Shown in pieces: positions 4,532-20,893 of a stretch of 64,000 nucleotides of DNA (its first letter is position 1; each line of letters begins with the position of its first letter). Made by a program: the position numbers and the translations under genes. The DNA is taken from contig OZ242381.1 of assembly GCA_965209095.1 (NCBI GenBank), positions 4,417,784 through 4,481,783 of the forward strand, written 5' to 3'. This DNA is from Candidatus Poribacteria bacterium (GTDB lineage Bacteria; Poribacteria; WGA-4E; WGA-3G). Under the pieces are notes generated by a model. It did not search any database, had not been told where the DNA came from, and was given only the letters and a program-made list of their open reading frames with translations.

Positions 4532-5425
4532 TTACATCATGCGTTTAATGATTGCAGCTCCCTGTTCTGGTGTAACACCCATCTGTTGATGTGTCATAGG
4601 TCCATTTTCCAAAACAGGTTCCAACTGATCTAATGATTGACTGTTTGTATCGTGATAGAACAACCCGAGCTGAGTGTCATATCCTGTTTTGACAGCTTGT
4701 TCAAGGGCAGCTGCTTTGTCACTTATGTCGTGGTTTTCTAAAAAATTGACCCGTTCCTTCCAATAATCGAAAATTTCATCCTTCCATGTTACACATGGAC
4801 TGATAACATCAATAAATGCAAATCCTTTGTGCTGCATGCCGTTAATCATCAACTCTGTGAGTTGCTTTCTTTCCGAACTAAATGCTCGGGCGACGTAAGT
4901 AGCACCTGAGACGATTGCCATTGCAACGGGATTGAGTGGTGTTTCTATATTGCCGAACGGTGTGCTTTTAGTAGCTTCTCCGACCACAGTGGTAGGTGAG
5001 GCTTGACCGACAGTCAATCCGTATGTCTCGTTGTTCATCACAATGTAAAGGAGATCTATATTCTTGCGCATCGTATGTATGAAATGGTTTCCACCGATTC
5101 CATATCCATCTCCATCACCCCCCGTCACTACGACATTCAATTCATGATTAGCCATTTTAGCTCCCGTTGCTACGGCAAGTGAACGTCCATGCAGGGTATG
5201 CATTCCGTAAGTGCGAATGAAACCAGGTAGATTTGATGAACACCCGATTCCGCTAACGGTGAGATGATCGTGGTTTCCCCGTCCAAGTTCTGCATATGCA
5301 ATTTGTAGGGCACTCAAGACACCAAAATCACCGCAACCGGGACACCAGTCAGGATTTACACTTTTGTAATCTTTCGCTGTAGGAGCACCTTTGATAGGTC
5401 TTTCTTTTTTTGCCATCTGATTCAT
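4532..5425 (-). CDS. korB: 2-oxoacid:ferredoxin oxidoreductase beta subunit (TPP-binding)
   Basis: Motifs DWCPGCGDFGVL and GIGCSS, with a GDG TPP-binding motif. Strong RBS AGGAGG 5 nt upstream. Follows korA. Confidence 0.8.
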   Translation of the reverse strand: MNQMAKKERPIKGAPTAKDYKSVNPDWCPGCGDFGVLSALQIAYAELGRGNHDHLTVSGIGCSSNLPGFIRTYGMHTLHGRSLAVATGAKMANHELNVVVTGGDGDGYGIGGNHFIHTMRKNIDLLYIVMNNETYGLTVGQASPTTVVGEATKSTPFGNIETPLNPVAMAIVSGATYVARAFSSERKQLTELMINGMQHKGFAFIDVISPCVTWKDEIFDYWKERVNFLENHDISDKAAALEQAVKTGYDTQLGLFYHDTNSQSLDQLEPVLENGPMTHQQMGVTPEQGAAIIKRMM

Positions 5426-10656: not shown

Positions 10657-12840
10657 CTATACTGTTTGAGATTGTGGTGTTGGAGTAGACTTCTCAGCTA
10701 TTGCTACAAGTCCACCAATAACCATTACCGCAACACCGATCCAGACAACACTTATAAGCGGATTATGGTAGATTTGAAGACTCACTTCGGTTTCCGTATC
10801 TATTTTTATAGGCATTAACATATTTGCCCCAACAACCGGTTTAGTTGGTAAAGGTCCAAGTGCAATATAGAGATCGTTCATGCCGTTGTGTCGTATCGCA
10901 GACTCAATAGTATCCTGTTCTCCTTGGCCTGTAGTAAAGTAATAGTTGCGCGAGGGTCGCATCGTTTTCGGTTTCCCACCATTCCTTCTAACTTCAAATT
11001 CAACTCCTGATTGGATAAAATTATCATGTTCTTCCAAAAACGAATCTTTCATCGTAAATTGATAATCACCGACATCCATCGATTCACCGAGTTTGAGTTT
11101 ACCATTTTCGAGCAAGTAATATCCCTTAGACCCCATAATACCTATGTATAGAATTACTATACCGATATGGACAATGTAACCTCCATATCTCCGTTTATTA
11201 CGTTGGATGAGAAGTCCTAATCCGTTTAGGAAAGATGTTGTCTGTCGTTTAGCACGAAGTTTCGCACCACGATAAAATTCACTAAATATAGCAACAAGAA
11301 CAAACGCACTTGCAAAAACACAGAGTATTGAAAAGATAGGTATCGGTTGTCCACTAAATGTAGCGAAGTCCCATACACGCGTTAAGAAATTAGGTGTTGC
11401 GACTTCAGCAGCGTCTACAGATATCTCTGCAGCAGCTTTAGCATGTGCTCTGAAAATGAGAAATAACCACGCAACTGCTCCTCCTATCAATCCGACAGAA
11501 AGTGGGGATTTGAACATACGTTGAAAATTATTTGGTGTAATCTTTTTCCATGAAATAATAGGTCCAGCACCTGTCAAGAAAAGTAGTAGCAATCCTGGAA
11601 TAATTACAACCTGATTGAAAAACGCTTCAGGAACGGCTGCTTTTTCCTTCTGAATTGCTTCAGATATAATAGGCCACAACGTTCCCCATAAAATAATTAG
11701 GGTCAAACCTACAAATAGCCAATTGTTCAAGACAAACGCGCTTTCTTTGGAAAGAAGGGATTCAAGTCGGTTAACACTTTTGAGTCGTTGCCAACGGTAA
11801 GCAACAAGTGCGATAACACCTGTTGTTGAAATGATGATAAAACCCATAAAATACCAACCAATATCGGATTGTGCAAATGCATGCACCGATGTAATAACTC
11901 CACTACGGGTTATAAATGTGCCTAATATGGTAAATTGGAAGGCTAAAGTAATTAGGAGGATATTCCACAGTTTAAGCATGTTCCGCTTTTCTTGAATCAT
12001 CACAGAATGCAGATAAGCGGTGCCGAGGAGCCATGGCATAAAGGATGCGTTTTCAACAGGGTCCCATGCCCAGTACCCGCCCCATCCGAGTTCTCTATAT
12101 GCCCAATTGCCACCCAGGGTGATACCGATGGTTAGGACAATCCAGGAAAACAACGTCCATCGACGAGAACGGTGTATCCAATCGCTGCCAATTCTTCCAG
12201 ATAGGAGTGCAGCTACAGCAAAAGCGAAAGGAATTGTTAAACTTATCCATCCAATGTATAACGTTGGGGGATGGAATGCCATACTGGGAGTCTGCAGAAG
12301 GGCGTTCATTCCTTGACCGTCAACCATGACTCTTCCATCAGGAAATCTGTCAAGGGGATTATAAACACCTTCAATCCATCCGGTAACAACAACAACGAAA
12401 AATAGTTGGACAACAGCAATGGGGATCAGAGCATAGTCAGCAAGGTTGTCAGTCGCTTTTCTGTTCTGCCAAACAACGATAGCACTACAGATAGAAAGCA
12501 ACCAGAGCCAGAATAGGAGCGAGCCAGACATTCGTCCCCACAAGGCGGTTATTTTATAAAGGAGGGGTTGTGCGGCACTGGATACCTCAACGACATATTT
12601 CATTGAGAAATCATCCGTCACAAAACTGAAAATTAATGCCCCAGTGGCGATACTGGTGAGAATGAAAGTGGCAACAACAGCGTTTCGTCCACTCTTGATA
12701 AAATTAGGTTTCCTTCCGCGCAACCCTATATAGAGTGAAACAATTGCCCATAACATAGAGAATAAGGCGAGAAATATCGCTGCTTGACCGAGTTCGGCAG
12801 CCACACTTTGTATGCTTGCCACAAACTTATCTATGAACAT
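10657..12840 (-). CDS. ccmF: Cytochrome c-type biogenesis protein CcmF (heme lyase)
   Basis: 727 aa, polytopic. Carries the WWD signature WAYRELGWGGYWAWDPVENASFMPWL. Confidence 0.85.
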   Translation of the reverse strand: MFIDKFVASIQSVAAELGQAAIFLALFSMLWAIVSLYIGLRGRKPNFIKSGRNAVVATFILTSIATGALIFSFVTDDFSMKYVVEVSSAAQPLLYKITALWGRMSGSLLFWLWLLSICSAIVVWQNRKATDNLADYALIPIAVVQLFFVVVVTGWIEGVYNPLDRFPDGRVMVDGQGMNALLQTPSMAFHPPTLYIGWISLTIPFAFAVAALLSGRIGSDWIHRSRRWTLFSWIVLTIGITLGGNWAYRELGWGGYWAWDPVENASFMPWLLGTAYLHSVMIQEKRNMLKLWNILLITLAFQFTILGTFITRSGVITSVHAFAQSDIGWYFMGFIIISTTGVIALVAYRWQRLKSVNRLESLLSKESAFVLNNWLFVGLTLIILWGTLWPIISEAIQKEKAAVPEAFFNQVVIIPGLLLLFLTGAGPIISWKKITPNNFQRMFKSPLSVGLIGGAVAWLFLIFRAHAKAAAEISVDAAEVATPNFLTRVWDFATFSGQPIPIFSILCVFASAFVLVAIFSEFYRGAKLRAKRQTTSFLNGLGLLIQRNKRRYGGYIVHIGIVILYIGIMGSKGYYLLENGKLKLGESMDVGDYQFTMKDSFLEEHDNFIQSGVEFEVRRNGGKPKTMRPSRNYYFTTGQGEQDTIESAIRHNGMNDLYIALGPLPTKPVVGANMLMPIKIDTETEVSLQIYHNPLISVVWIGVAVMVIGGLVAIAEKSTPTPQSQTV

Positions 12841-12881
12841 TATGATCCTCTAATTCTCAGACTGTTATATGGTAAAATAAC

Positions 12882-13020
12882 CCAAGTTGCCACCTATTAT
12901 TTGTAGGAGGGGTTTCTAACCCCGATTGATAACAAAAGATATAGAAATAACGAATTCTGGTGTCAATTATGGTAAATCGGGGTTAGAAACCCCTCCTACA
13001 AGCCTTAGGTGGCAACTTAG
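12882..13020. repeat. MITE-family hairpin module inserted between ccmE and ccmF
   Basis: Outer inverted repeat CCCAAGTTGCCACC / GGTGGCAACTTAGG. Inner hairpins GTAGGAGGGGTTTCTAACCCCGAT / ATCGGGGTTAGAAACCCCTCCTAC. The same module recurs at 57087-57115. Confidence 0.55.
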
Positions 13021-13023
13021 GAT

Positions 13024-13473
13024 TTAATATGAACTATCAGTAGTTTTGGCACTTTCCGCTTCTTCATATTTGGAAGCACACTTCGTGGTCACCTTATTAG
13101 CGATAATCACGTTCTGTTTTGCATCGTATCTGCCTTCAACAAAAACGTTGCCGCCATCAATGAAGTTATCCGGTTTGAGTTTGTTATAAATCACTTTGAC
13201 AGTCTCAGTTTCTGCATGCTTTGTCTCAGTTTCTTCAAGTTCACGTACGTCAAATGTCAACTTAAATTCGTCCGCATCCCATGTCGTACTCTCCTCAGAG
13301 ATGGCACCAACAAGCTGGACATTCTGATTATCCATTGTCTCAGCATTGGCAAGTAGTTTCACAGGAGTCAACTCCCGCATACTCTCTTTTTTTGTCATTG
13401 CTAACACTAAAATGACGAAACCGCTAAGCAAAATAAGACTTGCAGCGAATACTTTTAGTCTTCTCTGTTGCAT
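13024..13473 (-). CDS. ccmE: Cytochrome c maturation heme chaperone CcmE, CxxxY variant
   Basis: N-terminal TM anchor. OB-fold region LKPDNFIDGGNVFVEGRYD resembles CcmE LPDLFREGQGVVVQG. The heme-binding motif reads KCASKY instead of KHDENY. Start at 13473, with RBS GGAGGA 8 nt upstream. Confidence 0.75.
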   Translation of the reverse strand: MQQRRLKVFAASLILLSGFVILVLAMTKKESMRELTPVKLLANAETMDNQNVQLVGAISEESTTWDADEFKLTFDVRELEETETKHAETETVKVIYNKLKPDNFIDGGNVFVEGRYDAKQNVIIANKVTTKCASKYEEAESAKTTDSSY

Positions 13474-13761
13474 GTGTTCATCCTCCACAATACACGTTTG
13501 ATAACACGATAACGAAGTAAATGATGTATGAGCGTTGGAATTTATCCTATATCAACCATTGTCATTGAAATCTGTAAATCGGATGGGAATAAGTTCATTC
13601 TTCTTAAATAATACTTGACTTTGTATTTAAAATCAAGGTAAAATAGTTTCAAATTGAACTGTATTACGGAATTCCGTGCTTTATCTGATCTGCTATGGAT
13701 AAGGTCTCATTTGGCAATATATTGGTTTCTTATGTGATACAGAAAGGAATTTATCAAATCA

Positions 13762-14709
13762 ATGAATATTAATTGGCAGCACCACCCGTGGGCAGGCGTA
13801 TTCCCCGCAACCCTCTGTCCTTTCCATTCAGATGAATCAATTGACGAAGAAGGATTACGTCAATATATGCAGGAACTCGCAAGTGTAGAAGGCATAAAAG
13901 GCGTTGTCTGTAATGGACACACAGGTGAGATTATGTCCTTGCGTTTGCATGAACGGCAGCGTGTCACACAAATCACAGCAGAAGCTGTCGGTGATATGGT
14001 TAAGGTCGTTTCTGGCGTTAGCGCGGAAGGAAGTCTACCCGCAATTGATGATGCACTTGCAGCAAAGGAAGCAGGTGCAGATGCTATTCTATTGATGCCT
14101 GCACATCATTGGTTACGTTTCGGCAGAACACCTGAAACTGCGGTCGGTTATTTCCAAGATGTGGCTGAAGGTGTGGATATACCTATCATTGTGCATCAGT
14201 ATCCTGCGTGGACAAAGGCGGGATATAGCCTTGAAGAGATGTTGGAGATGGTAAAAATCCCACAAGTTGTTTGTATAAAGATGGGTACCCGTGATATGGC
14301 ACGTTGGCGATGGGATTACGAGCAACTTAAAGAAGCTGCTCCTGATGTGCCTATTTTAACTTGTCATGATGAATACCTACTCGCTTCACTATTAGAAGGC
14401 AGCGATGGCGCACTTATCGGATTTGCTGGGTTTGTTCCCGAATTGATGGTTGCAGTTGTTCACGCTGCACTCAATAACGATCTGATAGGGGCACGTAAAG
14501 CACGTAATCAGGTGGATACATTGGCACGGATTGTCTACAACTTCGGTGAACCGAGCAGCGATGCACATCAGAGAATGAAGTGTGCCAGATGGTTGATGGG
14601 TAGATTCCCTTCTATGACGATGCGTAGACCACTACGCCAATTGTCCACAGCCGAAATCAACAAAATCCGAAATGAACTTGAATCGGTTGGCTATCAATGT
14701 ATTAACTAA
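13762..14709 (+). CDS. Dihydrodipicolinate synthase / N-acetylneuraminate lyase family protein
   Basis: Class I aldolase DHDPS-family pattern (GVFPATLCPF...GVVCNGHTGE). Confidence 0.7.
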   Translation: MNINWQHHPWAGVFPATLCPFHSDESIDEEGLRQYMQELASVEGIKGVVCNGHTGEIMSLRLHERQRVTQITAEAVGDMVKVVSGVSAEGSLPAIDDALAAKEAGADAILLMPAHHWLRFGRTPETAVGYFQDVAEGVDIPIIVHQYPAWTKAGYSLEEMLEMVKIPQVVCIKMGTRDMARWRWDYEQLKEAAPDVPILTCHDEYLLASLLEGSDGALIGFAGFVPELMVAVVHAALNNDLIGARKARNQVDTLARIVYNFGEPSSDAHQRMKCARWLMGRFPSMTMRRPLRQLSTAEINKIRNELESVGYQCIN

Positions 14710-14780
14710 ATATAATAGTTGATTGGAATAAATACACTTCCAATCTTCCACTTATCCAGTCCAGTAGACTATCTCCAAAA

Positions 14781-15245
14781 TTACGATAGACAGTCCGCTA
14801 AGGTTTCTTGGAAGTCGTGAAAAGAGTCCGCGAGTGAAGCGTTAAGACTAACCTGCTTAAGTCGGTCGATGTCAGTGATGGTCTCCAGTCTCTGTCTAAT
14901 GGCGTTGACATCAAAATTAGGGAAACGTGCTTTGAGGACTGCCAATGTATTTTCAATACTCGTTTGGCGCGCCCCTTGTTCAATGCCTTGTTGAATCACA
15001 TGTTCGTAAAAAGGAGATTCTTGCATGATTGCCCCCTCATCAGGTAGGCGGACATGAAACGTCATATCGCTATGATGCATCCGAACCGTGGCGTGCTCTG
15101 TGCTCAACCGCTCTCCGACTTCCACCTCTGATGTCTTCAGTGCTAACACTGCTAAGTCCTTCGGGAACTCACCGGTAACGTGTTTGAAGATTTCATCATA
15201 GTATGGCATATAAGTATTATATCTGCATTTATGGAGAAACGTCAA
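14781..15245 (-). CDS. Rpn/YhgA-like (DUF4351) protein, short or degenerate form
   Basis: N-terminal YDEIFKHVTGEFPKDLAVLAL and C-terminal QQGIEQGARQ...LKARFPNFDV...RLETITDIDRLKQ resemble Rpn-family recombination-promoting nuclease ends. The PD-(D/E)XK core appears to be missing. Confidence 0.35.
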   Translation of the reverse strand: MTFLHKCRYNTYMPYYDEIFKHVTGEFPKDLAVLALKTSEVEVGERLSTEHATVRMHHSDMTFHVRLPDEGAIMQESPFYEHVIQQGIEQGARQTSIENTLAVLKARFPNFDVNAIRQRLETITDIDRLKQVSLNASLADSFHDFQETLADCLS

Positions 15246-15285
15246 GATTTCTACGGTTATCTAAAGTCATTTAGTTTTCACGACC

Positions 15286-17052
15286 CTACGGTGTTGAATT
15301 GTTGAGTTCTTGAAGTTTTTCCTCAATGATAGTTTTGAGTTCTTGTTGTCCCTGCTGTTCAGCAAGTTCTAAGGCAGTTTTGAGATTATTTATAGCTTCT
15401 TCAACGTTTCCTAAATCCGCCATTATAGCAGCAAGATTAGCATGGGCTTCTGTAAAATCAGGTTTTATGCGAATAGCCTCAGTATAATCCGCAAAAGCAT
15501 TTTCATATTGCTTGAGGAAATGTTTCACCATTCCTCGGCTATCGTATGCTTTTGCATAGTCCGGACTGAGGCGGATCGTTTCATCAAAATCGGCAAGAGC
15601 ATCATCAAATTGCTCAAGCATGCCTTTTACCAATCCTCTGTAATAGTATGCTTCAACATGTGTTGAGTTGAGACGAATTGTTTCATCAAAATCGGAAAGA
15701 GCATTTTCGTATTGTTCAAGTTGTGCATATACATATCCTCGTTCATAGAATGCTCCCGCATTATTTTGATCCAAATCAATTGCTTTTCCATAATCTGTTA
15801 AAGCAGCAATATATTTACGAAGATCTTTATTTACTTTCCCACGATAATAAAAACCTTTTGCATTTTCAGGATCCATACGAATCACCTGATTAAAATCTAA
15901 TAATGCATCAGCCAATTGTCCAAGCATACCATGTAAATAACCGCGTGTATTATAGGCGTTGACAAAATACGGATCTAACTCGATCGCTATATCAAAATCA
16001 GCAACTGCAGATTGATGGTCTTTTAATAATATCTTTACAATCCCTCTTAGATGATAAGAATGGACATAATCAGGATACAATTCAATGGCTTTATCAAAAT
16101 CAAGGATTGCGGATTGATATTCACTTAATTGGCACTTTACCAAACCCCTACCGATATAAGCCTCAAAATCATTCGATTTCAACCTGATTGCATCATCAAA
16201 GTCAGAAATTGCGGATTGATGCTCATTAAGTTGAAGTTTCGCCATTCCCCTACAACAATAGGCTTTAGCATAACTCGGATTTAACTCAATCGCATGATCA
16301 AAATCGTTTTTAGCAGATTTAGTTTGACCAGATTTGCCTTTTGCACAACCTCTATTAACGTAAAGTTCGGCAAAATTAGGAGCAAAACTAATTGCTTTTC
16401 CCAAGTCAGAAATTGCTTCATCATATTTGTGAAATTCCTGCAGTAAACCACCTCTGTTGTTATAAGCCACCCAAAAATTATGTTTCAGGACAATTGCCTT
16501 GCTATAAGCAGATAGGGCTTTTTCTGTCTTTTTCGCTTGATAGAGGAGAAAACCAATTGCGAAGAAAGCATGTGCAGCGATCTCATCTTCAGTTCCAGTT
16601 TCAATTGTTTCTTTCTCCACCAATTTTGGAGATTGTTCTGTCAGTTTTGGAACATAAGTGTCCTCATAGCTGCTAATAAGACGAGTAACAAATTCCATCA
16701 ATGATGCTAATATGTGATTTTCATTCTCGCCAACAGAATAGATTAATTCTTCTAATACTTCATCCAGCCACTCATATTCGTCTTCAGTCAAATTGATGAC
16801 ACCGTAATGTCCGTGTTGGTTGCCAAAAGCGATTAATCCATCTAACACCTCTACTAACCATTGATAGGCACTCTCAGAATAGGTTGTGAGCATAACAGGG
16901 GCGGATCGGTGAATGTGTGTCTGAATCGGTATAAGTTCAGCACTTGCGAACAATTGAGAACTACTCGGAATCACATCGGAGGGCACGAAATCTGATCCCA
17001 AATTCGTTAGCAATGATGGTGTGCTGAACGCAGACTGTGTTTCTGTCAACAT
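15286..17052 (-). CDS. TPR-repeat protein with HigA-N-terminal-like leader (putative HigB partner)
   Basis: Residues about 50-140 (YQWLVEVLDGLIAF...EDEYEWLDEVLEELIYSVGENENHILASLMEFVTRLISSYE) resemble the HigA antitoxin N-domain (EEQYtqALELvDhLl..dpENp.L.L...I.awEe). Residues about 170-588 form at least 11 TPR repeats. Starts 4 nt after the higB stop. Confidence 0.55.
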   Translation of the reverse strand: MLTETQSAFSTPSLLTNLGSDFVPSDVIPSSSQLFASAELIPIQTHIHRSAPVMLTTYSESAYQWLVEVLDGLIAFGNQHGHYGVINLTEDEYEWLDEVLEELIYSVGENENHILASLMEFVTRLISSYEDTYVPKLTEQSPKLVEKETIETGTEDEIAAHAFFAIGFLLYQAKKTEKALSAYSKAIVLKHNFWVAYNNRGGLLQEFHKYDEAISDLGKAISFAPNFAELYVNRGCAKGKSGQTKSAKNDFDHAIELNPSYAKAYCCRGMAKLQLNEHQSAISDFDDAIRLKSNDFEAYIGRGLVKCQLSEYQSAILDFDKAIELYPDYVHSYHLRGIVKILLKDHQSAVADFDIAIELDPYFVNAYNTRGYLHGMLGQLADALLDFNQVIRMDPENAKGFYYRGKVNKDLRKYIAALTDYGKAIDLDQNNAGAFYERGYVYAQLEQYENALSDFDETIRLNSTHVEAYYYRGLVKGMLEQFDDALADFDETIRLSPDYAKAYDSRGMVKHFLKQYENAFADYTEAIRIKPDFTEAHANLAAIMADLGNVEEAINNLKTALELAEQQGQQELKTIIEEKLQELNNSTP

Positions 17053-17055
17053 AAT

Positions 17056-17379
17056 TTACCTCTTCCAGTTGCCTCTATCATATTCTTCATGTGTGAGTAT
17101 ATGTCTAATAGAGACTTCCTGCCTTTTGTAATTAATGAATGCAATAAGGCGTACATTCCTGCCGATGTTGAAAACTGTCAATGTCGTCTTCTCTCCTGGA
17201 TGAGAAAACTTTCCCGCCCGGACTGGGGCCGGATCCGCTTGAGGAAACGTATCACGCAAATCTGTAATAGATTCGAATGTGCTCTCCTCCATCAACTCAT
17301 ACCACCGCTCAAGTCCTCGTCTGATTGTCGGATGTCTTTTGGCAAATTTATCCAGTTTTCTTCGTCCAATGATATGCAT
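17056..17379 (-). CDS. higB: Type II toxin HigB (RelE/ParE superfamily, HigB_toxin family)
   Basis: MHIIGRRKLDKF..HP....LERWY.......F....LRDTFPQAD...TVFNIGRNVRLIAFINYKRQEVSIRHILTHEEYDRGNWK matches the HigB consensus throughout, with a 12-aa insertion. Confidence 0.85.
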   Translation of the reverse strand: MHIIGRRKLDKFAKRHPTIRRGLERWYELMEESTFESITDLRDTFPQADPAPVRAGKFSHPGEKTTLTVFNIGRNVRLIAFINYKRQEVSIRHILTHEEYDRGNWKR

Positions 17380-17633
17380 TAGTTGTTTGAGTAGGAACCC
17401 TTTTATATGTAGTTGCGGTGGTTTTTACGAAATTATTATACCATACTAAGACCTAAGTTGTCAAAAATTGGAATAGTGAGAATTCTCAATGTTTGAAAAG
17501 ATTAAAGTTGACTTTTAGATAGAAAATCAAATATAATGGTCAGACGAAAAACAATCTATAATATACCTAATAACCAGGGGATCGTGTATAAAGTCAGTCT
17601 TGTAGCACAAACTATCTGAAACGAAAAGTAAAA

Positions 17634-18848
17634 ATGTCACTTTTAAAATACGCATTAATCGGTCACGGACGACGCGGATCAGCACATCTATCAACTGCTG
17701 CTGCGCTAAAAGACACATATCAAATCGTCGCAGTCTGTGATGCCCACAAAGAATCAGCAGAAGCAGGCGCAGCAAGAGTCAGTGTCAAAGCATACACCGA
17801 TGTTCGTAAGATGATTGACGAAACTTCTCCTGATGTCTGCGATGTAGTCGTTCCTGTCCAACTGCACCATATCGTTTCCTGTTACCTCTCCCGACGCGGT
17901 ATATCACATAACGTAGAAACAGGTCTTTCATCTACGCTCGGTTTGATGGATATGATGATAGCAGATGCTGCTGAAAATAGTGTTAAATTACAGACTTCTG
18001 AGAACTTCCCCTTTGTCCCCGTCGAACAGTTTGTCTGCAAACTAATTCAGGAAGATGTAATCGGCATGGTACACAAGTGCTATCGTCTATTTTCCACAAC
18101 TGGCTACCACGGTCTTGCAGCAATACGTTGCCGAATGAATGCTGTCCCCACATCAGTTAGTAGCATCGGACACTCAATGCCTGTTGTGCCTTATGTTGAC
18201 AGGGCAAAACGCGACTTCAATAGTGAAAGTCTTGAATTCTACGCCATCGATTTTAACAGTGGTGGAATCGGAATAGCAATGGTAGGAAACAAGAACAGTT
18301 GTCTCGGACGAAACAAACTCGTCGGTTTTGAAACTTGCGGTGAACGTGGCACAATTATCACAAATGGCAATCAAGGTGCATCTGGTGGTGAATCTGTTAA
18401 CGTATGTACTAACGAAGATATTAAGCAAAACGCAGGTAGAGCACAAACTTACGAATTTCAGAGAGAATATGATGAGAATAAAGTGCTGCAACGCATTTAT
18501 GTTGAACTCCCCAAATCCCTTGGTGGCACGATTGAGTGGATAAATCCCTACAGGCAAACTCAAATATCAGAGGGTGGCATTTCGCTTGCTACTATGCTTA
18601 ATGGTATTGCAACTGCTGTGAGAGAGGACACACATCCGATCTGGACCGGAGAAATGGGTAGAGCGGATCAGGAGATGGTGATCGCACGACACCGTTCTGT
18701 CCAGTCAAACCGTCAACCGATATCTCTCCCGTTGCAACCAGACCCTGACGAAGAAGCAGCGTTTGACCGTAATTTTGAGGAACAATTTGGGGTTCATCCC
18801 CGTGAAGATATTGAAAAGGCATTACAAGTTAATTTTAAGGCGCGTTAG
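17634..18848 (+). CDS. Gfo/Idh/MocA family oxidoreductase
   Basis: N-terminal Rossmann segment ALIGHGRRGSAHL with a C-terminal alpha/beta domain. Confidence 0.65.
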   Translation: MSLLKYALIGHGRRGSAHLSTAAALKDTYQIVAVCDAHKESAEAGAARVSVKAYTDVRKMIDETSPDVCDVVVPVQLHHIVSCYLSRRGISHNVETGLSSTLGLMDMMIADAAENSVKLQTSENFPFVPVEQFVCKLIQEDVIGMVHKCYRLFSTTGYHGLAAIRCRMNAVPTSVSSIGHSMPVVPYVDRAKRDFNSESLEFYAIDFNSGGIGIAMVGNKNSCLGRNKLVGFETCGERGTIITNGNQGASGGESVNVCTNEDIKQNAGRAQTYEFQREYDENKVLQRIYVELPKSLGGTIEWINPYRQTQISEGGISLATMLNGIATAVREDTHPIWTGEMGRADQEMVIARHRSVQSNRQPISLPLQPDPDEEAAFDRNFEEQFGVHPREDIEKALQVNFKAR

Positions 18849-18927
18849 TAGGTAGCTGCTATATCCAAACATCGGTAATATGCAGCTCTAAATTTGCCTA
18901 TAAACAATAATTACAGAAAGGAAATAT

Positions 18928-19899
18928 ATGAAAGAGATAAAAATCGGTTTTATAGGATCAGGTGGCAACGCAAACGGACACATGAACCGTTTATCAGATA
19001 TGGAAGGTGCGAATGTCGTTGCAGTATGCGATATAATACCGCAAAAGGCACAAAATGCAGCTGAAAAACACAATGCCGACCCCTATACTGATCACCGTGA
19101 AATGCTGGAACGAGACGATTTAGACGCAATATACCTAAGTCTCCCTGTCTTTGTTCACGGTCAACCTGAGTTAGACGTGATTGAACGTGGTTTACCATTC
19201 TTTGTTGAGAAACCTGTAGCAATCAACATGGACATAGCACGGGAAGTAGAAGCCGCGGTGACAAAAGCTGGATTGATTACTTGTGTAGGTTATCAACTCC
19301 GTTATCTCGGTTCAACAAAGATAACCCAAGAAATTCTTTCAGGTAAAACGATCAACATGGTTGTTGGCAAGTACTGGTGCGGTAGTGGTCGTGGCAATCC
19401 AGAAGGTTGGTTGCGGCAGTGGAACAAGTCTGGTGGTCAATTAGTTGAACAGGCAACCCACACAGTAGACATGATGCGTAACTTGCTTGGTGAAGTCGAT
19501 TCGGTTTTTGCCATGCAGGCAAATCGTACACTGAAACAGATTGACTGTCCAGATAGTAATTGTGTGACAATTCAATTTAGCAGCGGTGCTATAGGGACTT
19601 TGACCGCAGCATGGGCTTATGCAGGTGGTTGGGATAATGCCAATGTGTTAGATATTCTTTATGAAGGTGAATTGCTTAACTGGAATCCTGCAAGAGTCCA
19701 TTGCAAAGAAGATGGTGAATGGATAGATAAAACAGAACCTGGTCCCACAATCGATGAAGTTTTTGTGAACGCAGTCCGCAGTGGAGATGCCTCTCAGATA
19801 TTGAGTCCGTATACCGATGCGGTCAAAACGCTTGAGATTTCACTTGCAGCAAATCTCTCTGCAGAAGAAAACAGACTTGTCCAGACTTCTTCATTATAA
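18928..19899 (+). CDS. Gfo/Idh/MocA family oxidoreductase
   Basis: IGFIGSGGNANGHM ... FVEKP motif. Confidence 0.7.
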   Translation: MKEIKIGFIGSGGNANGHMNRLSDMEGANVVAVCDIIPQKAQNAAEKHNADPYTDHREMLERDDLDAIYLSLPVFVHGQPELDVIERGLPFFVEKPVAINMDIAREVEAAVTKAGLITCVGYQLRYLGSTKITQEILSGKTINMVVGKYWCGSGRGNPEGWLRQWNKSGGQLVEQATHTVDMMRNLLGEVDSVFAMQANRTLKQIDCPDSNCVTIQFSSGAIGTLTAAWAYAGGWDNANVLDILYEGELLNWNPARVHCKEDGEWIDKTEPGPTIDEVFVNAVRSGDASQILSPYTDAVKTLEISLAANLSAEENRLVQTSSL

Positions 19900-19909
19900 G
19901 GTGAGAAAT

Positions 19910-20893
19910 ATGGCGACAAAATATCGAGTAGCAATCGTAGGGTGTGGTGGTATTTCGCACGCACATGGTAACGCGTGGCGAAACGTACCAGAAATTGAGA
20001 TTGTTGGTGCATGCGATGAAAAGTTTGAGTCTCTCTCACGTTTTGCCACCGAATATGAAGTTGAAAACACATACAACGATTTGAGACAGATGTTGGAAAA
20101 ACAGAAACCCGATATCCTCGTCGTTGCAACGTGGCCCTCAAGTCATCTCAAAAACGTATTGGAAGCAGTCCGTTGCGAAGTTAAGGGTATCCTCGTTGAA
20201 AAACCAATTGCTGTCAATACATCCCAACTGGAACAGATGATTCAGGTAACAGAACGGGCAAATATCCTCTTGATGGAAGCGTTTATGTATCGACATCATC
20301 CATTAACGTTAGCAGTAAAGGAAAAGGTGGAAGAAGGTGCAATCGGGGAAGTCCGATACGCCCGTTCATCTTTTTCAACCGGCCTCACTGATCGGACAAA
20401 TTGGCGATTAAGAGGTGATCTCGGTGGTGGTGCTGTGATGGATTTAGGATGTTACTGTATCAACATTATTCGCCACCTCATCGGACGCGAACCGCAATCT
20501 GCATGGGCAACAGGTAAGTTTGAGCCAATTAACAATGTCTGGGAAACTTTAATTGGTACAATGGACTTTGGTGATGGTGTCACTGGTCAATTTGATTGTA
20601 GTTTCGGATGGACTTGGCGTGAGTGTTATGAAGTTGCTGGTACAAAGGGAACTCTCTTTGTGCAAAGTGCTTGGGGAAACAGCGAAGGAGAATCGCACTT
20701 CACCGTCAACGGAGAGACTATTAGCGTTACTGGTGTAAACCCTTACGCTGCCGAATTATTGAATCTATGTGAAGCAGTAGATAACGGCACCCCACTTCTC
20801 TTGCCAATATCTGATGCGTTAGGAAACATGCGTGTCATTGACGCGCTACACGAATCCGCACATACAGGACAACGAATATTCATATCCGTTTAA
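19910..20893 (+). CDS. Gfo/Idh/MocA family oxidoreductase
   Basis: VAIVGCGGISHAH ... LVEKP motif. Start reset to ATG 19910, with RBS AAGGTGAGA upstream. Confidence 0.7.
   Translation: MATKYRVAIVGCGGISHAHGNAWRNVPEIEIVGACDEKFESLSRFATEYEVENTYNDLRQMLEKQKPDILVVATWPSSHLKNVLEAVRCEVKGILVEKPIAVNTSQLEQMIQVTERANILLMEAFMYRHHPLTLAVKEKVEEGAIGEVRYARSSFSTGLTDRTNWRLRGDLGGGAVMDLGCYCINIIRHLIGREPQSAWATGKFEPINNVWETLIGTMDFGDGVTGQFDCSFGWTWRECYEVAGTKGTLFVQSAWGNSEGESHFTVNGETISVTGVNPYAAELLNLCEAVDNGTPLLLPISDALGNMRVIDALHESAHTGQRIFISV

What the first reader, a model, noticed from the sequence alone, without database searches (positions are those of the whole stretch)
15286..17379. HigB toxin paired with a 588-aa protein that keeps a HigA-like N-domain but replaces the HTH with an 11-repeat TPR array
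The 107-aa ORF is an unambiguous HigB-family toxin (MHIIGRRKL..F...HP...LERWY...LRDTFPQAD...VFNIG.N.RLIAF..Y.RQEV.IRHILTHEEYD.G.W). Four nt downstream, the next gene starts. It has an internally duplicated helical N-region (YQWLVEVLDGLIAF / EDEYEWLDEVLEELIYSVGENENHILASLMEFVTRLISSYE) that resembles the HigA N-terminal domain (EEQYtQALELVDHLLLNDPENPLLDLV..KITAWEE). In place of the XRE HTH it carries roughly 420 aa of TPR repeats. Inference: an antitoxin whose DNA-binding module has been swapped for a protein-interaction scaffold. Such a product could release HigB on sensing a protein ligand. This parallels the BrnA-leader-TIR fusion elsewhere in the window.
Basis: partly seen in the sequence, partly recalled or inferred. 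Interest (0 to 1): 0.68.

Follow-up and report, generated by a model that had tools for sequence, protein, structure and literature searches.

The report
HigB toxin with TPR-fused antitoxin
A sponge-symbiont (Poribacteria) genome carries a HigB toxin gene whose partner keeps the toxin-binding part of the usual HigA antitoxin but has a highly variable 12-repeat TPR protein-binding array where the DNA-binding domain should be, an undescribed antitoxin architecture that may couple toxin release to protein recognition.

Summary
A 107-aa HigB toxin (Pfam PF09907, E 5.7e-20) is followed after 3 nt by a 588-aa protein. That protein has a disordered 51-aa leader, a three-helix N-domain, 12 TPRs (not 11) and a capping helix. 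It has no HTH.

The N-domain is homologous to the N-terminal domain of canonical HigA. It shares 50% identity over 42 aa with a Leptospira plasmid HigA (hhalign probability 97%, E 3.5e-11). The best of 350,542 PDB chains by fold is E. coli HigA, though that match is not significant.

In 69 loci from genome assemblies, 67 of them Poribacteria, the N-domain gene usually sits directly behind HigB. TPR number ranges from 3 to 18. At orthologous loci the internal repeats are replaced while HigB, the N-domain, TPR1 and the cap stay conserved. One marine lineage encodes HigB, N-domain and TPR as three separate genes. Sister loci add a VapB-like tail that overlaps a PIN toxin gene.

Best reading: a non-canonical type II toxin-antitoxin module whose antitoxin carries a variable protein-binding array. 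Neutralisation of HigB and ligand-triggered release are inferred, not shown. I rate it a new variant of a known kind, interest about 0.7.

The parts
17435..17464 (-). Promoter-like site upstream of higB: TTGACA, 18 nt, TG-TATAAT, 12 of 12 consensus positions.
   Evidence: consensus scan; a pattern match only. An 11-nt inverted repeat lies just upstream at 17472-17493.
17056..17379 (-). higB: 107-aa HigB-family (PF09907) RelE-like mRNA interferase toxin, stop codon included.
   Evidence: dN/dS is 0.30 against ortholog L001. The C-terminal IRHILTHEEYD aligns with E. coli HigB IREVMTHKEYD.
17053..17063 (-). Coupling junction: AGAGG (17063-17059), overlapping TAA stop (17058-17056), then ATT spacer (17055-17053) before the ATG at 17052.
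   Evidence: The same stop-plus-one-codon-plus-ATG layout is seen in orthologs.
15286..17052 (-). 588-aa antitoxin-like protein: leader, HigA-N-like domain, 12 TPRs and cap, stop codon included.
16891..17052 (-). Leader, residues 1-54. Residues 1-51 are predicted disordered and the region is only moderately conserved.
   Evidence: pLDDT is below 50 for residues 1-51. Identity to L001 is 76% with dN/dS 0.55. It is aligned in relatives.
16633..16890 (-). N-domain, residues 55-140: three-helix domain (helices 60-80, 90-107, 116-133). Helices 2 and 3 (residues 89-130) are the part homologous to the HigA N-terminal domain. Helix 1 is a duplicate of helix 2.
   Evidence: pLDDT above 90; homology to HigA; duplication; 90% identity to L001.
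16579..16632 (-). Linker, residues 141-158.
   Evidence: Lower pLDDT of 64-72. The separate TPR protein of L071 begins to align at residue 149.
15355..16578 (-). TPR array, residues 159-566, 12 x 34 aa. TPR1 is conserved; TPR2-12 are hypervariable between orthologs.
15289..15354 (-). Conserved C-terminal capping helix (QGQQELKTIIEEKLQELNNSTP).
   Evidence: Part of this region matches NCBIfam TPR_END_plus.

Best explanation
This is a non-canonical type II toxin-antitoxin module of the HigBA kind in a Candidatus Poribacteria chromosome.

HigB is a ribosome-dependent mRNA endonuclease by family membership. It is co-transcribed and translationally coupled with a 588-aa protein. I propose that this protein's N-terminal three-helix domain binds and neutralises HigB in the way the two N-terminal helices of canonical HigA wrap HigB.

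The C-terminal HTH of HigA normally dimerises the antitoxin and represses the operon. Here it is replaced by a 12-repeat TPR solenoid with a conserved first repeat and cap and rapidly replaced internal repeats. I propose that the TPR array is a protein- or peptide-binding module. Its occupancy by an invader or cellular ligand, or the loss of a stabilising ligand, would control the stability or conformation of the antitoxin and so the release of HigB. The outcome would be growth arrest or abortive infection.

In sister loci the same scaffold also carries a VapB-type C-terminal tail and neutralises a downstream PIN (VapC) toxin. The TPR protein therefore acts there as a modular antitoxin hub.

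Shown here: family memberships, homology of the N-domain to HigA-N, absence of an HTH, conserved synteny, the existence of split and fused forms, and TPR hypervariability.

Inferred: HigB toxicity, neutralisation by the N-domain, ligand binding by the TPR array, and any trigger.
For: 1. HigB identity.

2. N-domain homology to HigA.
- Window residues 89-130 against Leptospira weilii plasmid HigA residues 24-65: 50% identity, BLASTP E 6e-11.
- Poribacteria profile against the same protein: hhalign probability 97.2%, E 3.5e-11.
- That protein has HTH_3 at residues 80-131 and follows a PF09907 HigB.
- A stand-alone relative (P0092) hits 73 plasmid records, annotated as HTH-domain proteins or as 'higA', at E down to 4e-10.

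3. Fold. AF2 models have pLDDT 86 and 85 with three helices. The top Foldseek PDB hit of 350,542 chains is 5ifg_D, E. coli HigA in complex with HigB. E. coli HigA wraps HigB with two helices and has its HTH at the C terminus (PMC7984235).

4. Synteny. Among 77 complete copies of the N-domain gene in Poribacteria loci, 37 have an intact HigB directly upstream, 16 have remnants or interrupted copies, and 22 have none. HigB or its remnants also precede N-domain genes outside Poribacteria (L068, L071, L073, L075).

5. The link to TPR is not a chance fusion. L071 encodes HigB, an N-domain-only protein and a separate 10-TPR protein. That TPR protein aligns to window residues 149-585, including TPR1 and the cap (38% identity, E 1e-90).

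6. Competence as an antitoxin scaffold. The scan of genes just downstream shows 11 loci in which a TPR protein ending in a VapB-like tail overlaps an apparently intact PIN gene by 4 nt. The stricter automatic tally scored 9 of these PIN genes as intact. The tail matches TA_VapB at E 1.3e-5.

7. Variable recognition module. TPR number is 3-18 across copies. Against ortholog L001, the N-domain is 90% identical and TPR1 82%, but TPR2-12 are only 29-50% identical with saturated dS. The flanks are syntenic at about 85% nucleotide identity.

8. Purifying selection acts on HigB (dN/dS 0.30) and on the N-domain (0.18).
Against: - There is no experimental or modelled HigB:N-domain complex.
- The structural match to HigA is top-ranked but not significant (E 2.4, TM 0.40).
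- The direct profile comparison with E. coli HigA is only moderate (probability 53%).
- Nothing shows that the TPR array binds a ligand. Hypervariable concave-face positions and changes in repeat number are common to TPR proteins generally.
- The locus sits among metabolic genes rather than in a recognisable defence island.
- A lineage of 22 copies keeps a short 3-4-TPR version with no HigB and no PIN. The protein may therefore have a role independent of a linked toxin.
- Without an HTH, how the near-consensus promoter is controlled is unexplained.
Confidence: 0.7

Rival explanations
1. Passive scaffold. The module is a HigB/antitoxin pair as above, but the TPR array only replaces the structural services of the lost HTH domain: oligomerisation, solubility and protection from proteases. 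It senses nothing, and repeat turnover is neutral drift of a spacer.
For: Canonical HigA dimerises through its C-terminal part, so some replacement is plausible. TPR1 and the cap, the parts needed to start and end a solenoid, are the conserved ones. dN/dS in the array is 0.36, which is purifying rather than positive, although dS is saturated.
Against: A mere spacer would not need 5-18 repeats, and it would not be kept as a separate gene next to HigB and the N-domain gene in another lineage. Copies with an intact HigB have long arrays (median 11), while toxin-less copies have 3-4. That suggests array length matters when a toxin is present.
Confidence: 0.3
2. TAC-like logic. The TPR module acts as a built-in (or, in L071/L072, separate) chaperone that binds and stabilises the otherwise labile antitoxin part. 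Invader proteins that compete for the TPR groove would expose the antitoxin to proteolysis and free HigB.
For: The three-gene layout toxin / antitoxin / TPR in L071 mirrors toxin-antitoxin-chaperone operons. In HigBAC, a phage tail protein displaces the antitoxin from its SecB-like chaperone (PMC11980606). Relatives such as P0111 carry tandem C-terminal acidic motifs (AAYxxDEPEYT) and are followed by a TPR gene; these motifs could be TPR-binding peptides. The window protein has a 51-aa disordered leader. The TPR part has sub-threshold similarity to the LcrH/SycD chaperone family.
Against: There is no SecB-like protein and no recognisable chaperone-addiction motif. P0071 in L071 has no C-terminal extension. 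The whole idea is an analogy.
Confidence: 0.2
3. The TPR protein's main job lies elsewhere, for example as one of the eukaryote-like repeat proteins typical of sponge symbionts. On this reading the HigB/N-domain part is only an addiction cassette that has fused to it and keeps the gene from being lost.
For: Toxin-less 320-355-aa versions are conserved in 22 copies. TPR proteins are abundant in sponge symbionts (own knowledge).
Against: No signal peptide is evident in the N-terminal sequence. The leader is polar and predicted disordered. The TPR part co-occurs with HigB and the N-domain in fused and split forms in different lineages. The VapB tail and PIN additions point to toxin control as the common theme.
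Confidence: 0.1
4. It is a decaying, non-functional remnant of a HigBA module that happens to have been joined to a TPR gene.
For: Many relatives are degraded: HigB remnants, insertions, and in-frame deletion chimeras such as P0015 and P0064.
Against: In the window both ORFs are intact and coupled, with a consensus-like promoter. dN/dS is 0.18-0.30. The architecture is kept with an intact HigB in 37 copies.
Confidence: 0.05

Closest known systems
Canonical HigBA of the PF09907 type (E. coli K-12 YgjN/YgjM, PDB 5IFG; plasmid HigBA of Leptospira and Acinetobacter)
   Same: The toxin belongs to the same Pfam family. The toxin gene comes first and the antitoxin gene follows within 1-3 nt. The antitoxin N-terminal helices are homologous (50% identity over 42 aa to Leptospira HigA).
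   Different: The canonical antitoxin is about 133-138 aa and ends in an XRE-type HTH that dimerises and represses the operon. Here the HTH is absent. It is replaced by a duplicated helix, a linker, 12 TPRs and a cap (588 aa), preceded by a 51-aa disordered leader.
Toxin-antitoxin-chaperone (TAC) systems, e.g. HigBAC / CmdTAC
   Same: A RelE/HigB-type toxin, an antitoxin, and a third protein-binding component that could couple antitoxin stability to invader proteins. A three-gene split form exists (L071).
   Different: The third component is a TPR solenoid, not a SecB-like chaperone. It is fused to the antitoxin in Poribacteria. No chaperone-addiction motif was identified. This is an analogy only.
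PD-lambda-2 anti-phage system (Vassallo et al. 2022, PMC9519451)
   Same: The window HigB matches the PADLOC PD-Lambda-2_A models (E 8.6e-16). PD-lambda-2 is also a HigB-like protein paired with a non-standard partner.
   Different: PD-lambda-2 has an HTH-peptidase B component, which is the toxic one, and a P4-antitoxin-like C component. Neither is present here.
VapBC modules with Phd/YefM- or DUF2281-type VapB
   Same: In sister loci the TPR protein ends in the VapB-type tail (KPRRGGQWKGKVKIAEDFDELPESF) and overlaps a PIN gene by 4 nt.
   Different: The window copy has no tail and no PIN gene. In the sister loci the VapB DNA-binding domain has been lost and its tail grafted onto the TPR protein.
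Repeat-array immune sensors (TPR sensors of Avs/STAND NTPases) and fused toxin-antitoxin sensors such as CapRel (own knowledge, not tested here)
   Same: A variable repeat or antitoxin domain proposed to recognise invader proteins and unleash an effector.
   Different: There is no NTPase or oligomerisation switch. The effector is a separate small toxin held by a tethered antitoxin domain. No ligand is known.

Membership tests
Type II HigBA toxin-antitoxin (PF09907 HigB / HigA with N-terminal toxin-binding domain and C-terminal HTH) | Toxin belongs to the HigB_toxin family (PF09907). | tested here: met
   E 5.7e-20, 71.8 bits against a cut-off of 27. PDB HigB hits at E 5e-5.
Type II HigBA toxin-antitoxin (PF09907 HigB / HigA with N-terminal toxin-binding domain and C-terminal HTH) | Reverse gene order: toxin first, antitoxin immediately downstream in one operon. 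| tested here: met
   3-nt spacer, a Shine-Dalgarno sequence inside the end of higB, and a single promoter-like site upstream. The layout is conserved in orthologs.
Type II HigBA toxin-antitoxin (PF09907 HigB / HigA with N-terminal toxin-binding domain and C-terminal HTH) | Antitoxin N-terminal helical domain homologous to that of HigA. | tested here: met
   hhalign probability 97.2%, E 3.5e-11. BLASTP E 6e-11 with 50% identity over 42 aa to a plasmid HigA. Weaker against E. coli HigA (probability 53%). Top Foldseek hit is 5ifg_D, but not significant.
Type II HigBA toxin-antitoxin (PF09907 HigB / HigA with N-terminal toxin-binding domain and C-terminal HTH) | Antitoxin carries an XRE-type HTH DNA-binding/dimerisation domain that autoregulates the operon. 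| tested here: not met
   No HTH family hit in Pfam or NCBIfam; TPR families only. No separate HTH gene nearby. It is therefore not a canonical HigA.
Type II HigBA toxin-antitoxin (PF09907 HigB / HigA with N-terminal toxin-binding domain and C-terminal HTH) | Toxin arrests growth and the antitoxin neutralises it by direct binding. | not testable with these tools
   Needs co-expression and binding assays.
Toxin-antitoxin-chaperone (TAC) | SecB-like chaperone gene and a chaperone-addiction extension on the antitoxin. | tested here: not met
   No SecB-like hit in the operon; the third module is TPR.
PD-lambda-2 defence system | Three components: HigB-like A, HTH-peptidase B, P4-antitoxin-like C. 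| tested here: not met
   Only the A models match. The partner matches generic TPR models only. The system composition is taken from PMC9519451.
VapBC | PIN-domain toxin adjacent to an antitoxin with a VapB tail. | tested here: not met
   No significant PIN match was found anywhere in the window (tblastn E >= 5), and the window protein ends in the cap without the tail. The feature is met only in sister loci such as L038.
STAND/Avs-type TPR sensors | NTPase (NACHT/AAA-like) domain coupled to the TPR sensor and an effector domain. | tested here: not met
   No NTPase family hit in Pfam, NCBIfam or PADLOC.

The most novel reading that the evidence does not exclude
The hypervariable TPR array is a direct pattern-recognition sensor for phage or other foreign proteins. 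It is hard-wired to one or two tethered antitoxin modules: HigA-N at the N terminus and, in sister loci, a VapB tail at the C terminus. Ligand binding would release HigB, and VapC where present. This would be an NTPase-free, NLR-like 'sensor-antitoxin hub', a new way of giving toxin-antitoxin modules a specific trigger.
Probability: 0.3. Interest if true: 0.85.

Novelty: new variant of a known kind. Interest (0 to 1): 0.7.

Why it matters
What triggers chromosomal toxin-antitoxin modules is a long-standing open question. This module has an antitoxin whose regulatory half is a variable protein-binding array. If that array really controls toxin release, the trigger becomes directly testable, because one can look for what the TPR array binds.

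The work also shows three further things.
- The HigB-binding domain of HigA is a portable module. It exists as a small stand-alone protein of roughly 50-110 aa, as a duplicated form of about 145 aa, and fused to TPR arrays. No hit was found in Pfam or NCBIfam for the members scanned.
- One scaffold can carry neutralising modules for two unrelated toxins.
- The system is conserved at a chromosomal locus in an uncultivated sponge-symbiont phylum known for eukaryote-like repeat proteins.

Public annotation of the cluster members seen calls these proteins only 'tetratricopeptide repeat protein' or 'hypothetical protein'.

Tried and rejected
- Sequence searches of the PDB with the N-region alone, with the Poribacteria profile and with the stand-alone-family profile found no HigA. 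They returned only chance hits with E of at least 0.1.
- hhalign against E. coli HigA, as a single sequence or as an enterobacterial alignment, was weak to moderate (probability 0.7-53%). The link became convincing only through plasmid HigA proteins found by tblastn.
- A single-chain pseudo-complex of HigB joined to the N-domain was prepared. MAFFT first misaligned the two blocks.
- A search of the window for a PIN gene or a second N-domain found nothing. The weak hit at 4673-4900 lies inside a 297-aa ORF (4532..5425) that looks like a metabolic enzyme and is treated as spurious.
- A TPR gene downstream of the Leptospira weilii plasmid HigBA looked like a possible wider link. It is absent from the L. 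kirschneri plasmid, so I treat it as coincidence.
- My first guess was that some sister ORFs run into an Rpn-like gene. That was wrong: the neighbouring gene is a staphylococcal-nuclease homologue.
- Literature searches for HigB with TPR antitoxins and for Poribacteria toxin-antitoxin systems found no description of this architecture.
- Tandem Repeats Finder shows only weak 102-nt periodicity, and the repeats are 49% identical on average at the nucleotide level. Recent amplification or assembly collapse is therefore unlikely.
Full report
**Observation.** The two ORFs are exactly where the finding says: a 107-aa ORF at 17379..17056 (-) and a 588-aa ORF at 17052..15286 (-). The junction reads TAA ATT ATG, a 3-nt spacer in the same frame, with AGAGG 6 nt before the ATG. 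A promoter-like site matching 12 of 12 consensus positions (TTGACA, 18 nt, TG-TATAAT) lies at 17464-17435. The small protein is a HigB_toxin (PF09907, E 5.7e-20). It matches the E. coli HigB structures 5ycl and 5ifg (E 5e-5) and the PADLOC PD-Lambda-2_A models (E 8.6e-16). The large protein gives 12 TPR_1 stretches (E 6.6e-69). Phasing by hand gives 12 x 34 aa at residues 159-566 plus a 22-aa cap, so there are 12 repeats rather than 11. No HTH family matches it or the next ORF.

**Where it comes from.** The flanks 11001-14738 and 16491-20877 align at about 85% nucleotide identity with a Candidatus Poribacteria chromosome (L052, OY282386.1). They also align with L001, in the same gene order, among DapA-like and oxidoreductase-like genes. 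The locus is therefore chromosomal and vertically inherited in a sponge-symbiont lineage. It is not an obvious mobile or defence island.

**Is the N-region HigA-like?** The evidence came in four steps.
- The region has 38 close relatives. The few that carry a source name are labelled Poribacteria, and many are gene-call fragments.
- A profile of the core (residues 55-140) searched against 1.84 billion representatives found 314 proteins. Many are small stand-alone proteins of roughly 50-110 aa that match only the second half. Their consensus is TExEYxxLVxxLDxLIDxVGEDExHPLASLMExxGxLIExYEDEHVPEL. No Pfam or NCBIfam family hit was found for the members scanned.
- The decisive link came from plasmids. 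A stand-alone member hits 73 plasmid records annotated as HTH-domain proteins or as 'higA' (E down to 4e-10). Those genes sit 1-3 nt behind a PF09907 HigB and have HTH_3 at residues 80-131. Window residues 89-130 align to residues 24-65 of the Leptospira HigA at 50% identity (BLASTP E 6e-11). The Poribacteria profile gives hhalign probability 97.2%, E 3.5e-11.

**Structure.**
- AlphaFold2 models the domain as three helices (60-80, 90-107, 116-133) with pLDDT 86.
- The best of 350,542 PDB chains is 5ifg_D, E. coli HigA in complex with HigB. The score is not significant, as expected for a small helical domain (E 2.4, TM 0.40).
- Helix 1 is a duplicate of helix 2 (score 50 against 19 +/- 4.2 in shuffles).
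- In E. coli, HigA wraps HigB with two helices and its HTH is C-terminal (PMC7984235).
- The full-length model (pLDDT 85) gives a disordered leader (1-51), the N-domain, a softer linker, a TPR solenoid and a cap helix.

**Comparative genomics.** A scan of one genome per species returned 69 loci. Of these, 67 are Poribacteria, some with two tandem copies.
- Among 77 complete copies of the N-domain gene, 37 have an intact HigB directly upstream. Sixteen have remnants or interrupted copies, and 22 have none.
- TPR number runs from 3 to 18. Copies with an intact HigB have a median of 11 repeats. Toxin-less copies have only 3-4.
- Against the closest ortholog, L001 (also 588 aa), HigB is 81% identical with dN/dS 0.30. 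The N-domain is 90% identical (dN/dS 0.18, dS 0.25), TPR1 82% and the cap 73%. TPR2-12 are only 29-50% identical and dS is saturated at 1.38. At nucleotide level the internal array is largely unalignable between syntenic loci.
- The repeats within the window protein are old: 32% amino-acid and 49% nucleotide identity on average. This is replacement or shuffling of repeats, not an assembly artefact.

**The TPR link is not a chance fusion.** In L071, a marine metagenome contig of 5.6 Mb, three separate genes occur in a row. They are a PF09907 HigB, a 147-aa N-domain-only protein 3 nt downstream, and a 468-aa 10-TPR protein. That TPR protein aligns to window residues 149-585, from the linker and TPR1 to the cap (38% identity, E 1e-90). 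A related lineage (P0111, L072) has an N-domain protein with tandem acidic C-terminal motifs, followed by an overlapping TPR gene. Outside Poribacteria, stand-alone N-domain genes sit behind an intact HigB (L068) or behind HigB remnants (L073, L075).

**A second toxin in sister loci.** About 30 Poribacteria copies extend the cap with KPRRGGQWKGKVKIAEDFDELPESF. In the scan of genes just downstream, 11 of these loci show the gene overlapping an apparently intact 125-aa PIN gene by 4 nt; the stricter automatic tally scored 9 PIN genes as intact. The L038 PIN gene matches PF01850 at E 1.4e-15. The same tail ends a stand-alone Phd/VapB-like antitoxin in L061. There the N-terminal part matches PhdYeFM (E 9.7e-5) and the tail matches TA_VapB (E 1.3e-5), both below the families' cut-offs. 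A PIN toxin kept intact next to a protein that retains only the VapB tail implies that the TPR protein is a working antitoxin carrier. The window copy has neither the tail nor a PIN gene.

**Mechanism.** I commit to the following, at confidence 0.7 for the toxin-antitoxin core.
- HigB and the TPR protein are made from one transcript by coupled translation.
- Helices 2 and 3 of the N-domain wrap HigB and block it.
- The TPR solenoid, in place of the HTH, gives the antitoxin a protein-binding surface that varies between species.
- Whether that surface senses an invader or a cellular ligand (my preferred reading, about 0.3-0.35), acts as a TAC-like stabiliser (about 0.2), or is a passive scaffold (about 0.3) cannot be decided from sequence.

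The homology, architecture, synteny, split and fused forms, and variability are shown. Toxicity, neutralisation, ligand binding and any trigger are inferred. Loss of the HTH leaves control of the near-consensus promoter unexplained.

**Comparison with known systems.**
- The module works like a HigBA pair but fails one defining feature of HigA, the HTH. I therefore file it as a variant and not as a canonical member.
- It is not PD-lambda-2, whose B and C components are absent (PMC9519451).
- It is not a TAC system, because there is no SecB-like protein.
- It is not an Avs-type sensor, because there is no NTPase.
- Searches of the held literature found no description of a HigB partner with a TPR array, and none of Poribacteria toxin-antitoxin modules of this kind.
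- The source names seen for cluster members are 'tetratricopeptide repeat protein' or 'hypothetical protein'.

**Dead ends.**
- PDB sequence searches with the N-domain found no HigA.
- A weak N-domain-like hit at 4673-4900 is spurious.
- A TPR gene near a Leptospira HigBA is not conserved.

**Verdict.** The sensing idea is plausible but untested. I rate this a new variant of a known kind, with interest about 0.7.

Noticed in passing
window 14739-15282 (ORF 15245..14781 or 15207..14781, minus strand): A 544-bp stretch between the TPR gene and the DapA-like gene is absent from the syntenic Poribacteria chromosome L052. It carries a 141-154-aa ORF with its own promoter-like site (TTGACG, 18 nt, TATAAT at 15245-15216). 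The ORF has no Pfam, NCBIfam or PADLOC match.
   Followed up: partly
L040-L057 and similar loci (e.g. L042 4881-5945): A conserved 'orphan' lineage of 320-355-aa proteins has the N-domain, only 3-4 TPRs and often the VapB-like tail. It has no HigB upstream and no PIN downstream, and accounts for 22 copies. Possible readings are a toxin-independent role or protection against incoming toxins.
   Followed up: partly
L038 4527-7744; also L019, L028, L030, L034, L035, L045, L063, L066: Two-toxin arrangement: HigB, then a TPR protein with both the HigA-N domain and a VapB tail, then an overlapping PIN/VapC gene. A staphylococcal-nuclease homologue follows in L038 (7892-8302).
   Followed up: partly
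L008, L013, L015, L031, L035 (second copy about 2 kb downstream of the first): Tandem duplicates of the whole HigB/TPR-antitoxin module. The two copies belong to different paralog groups, with N-domains about 50-75% identical.
   Followed up: no
L002 3515-4829 and L004 3356-4832: HigB is split by an insertion of about 1 kb or more, leaving the N-terminal and C-terminal parts about 1-1.2 kb apart. The inserted DNA was not examined; it could be an IS element.
   Followed up: no
P0015 (160 aa) and P0064 (74 aa): In-frame chimeras that join the first 35-43 residues of HigB directly to the N-domain. They look like deletion products that inactivate the toxin while keeping the antitoxin frame.
   Followed up: no
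P0111, P0115, P0155, P0158, P0138, P0166, P0177; L072 2501-3929: N-domain proteins of 155-263 aa that mostly carry two or more tandem acidic C-terminal motifs (such as GLEAAYSDDEPEYTLDMLT). At least one is followed by an overlapping TPR gene. These motifs are candidates for TPR-binding peptides.
   Followed up: partly
window 17472-17493: An 11-nt inverted repeat (AATAGTGAGAA / TTCTCAATGTT, 82% complementary) lies just upstream of the -35 element of the higB promoter-like site. It could be an operator for an unlinked regulator now that the HTH is gone.
   Followed up: no
P0128 (1103 aa): A long, proline/glutamine-rich repetitive protein matched the N-domain profile in five stretches (E 2.9e-8). 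The matching repeat reads YSALDGVLEQVVPS. This is probably a compositional or chance match.
   Followed up: no
I did not look for it or check it.
   Followed up: no
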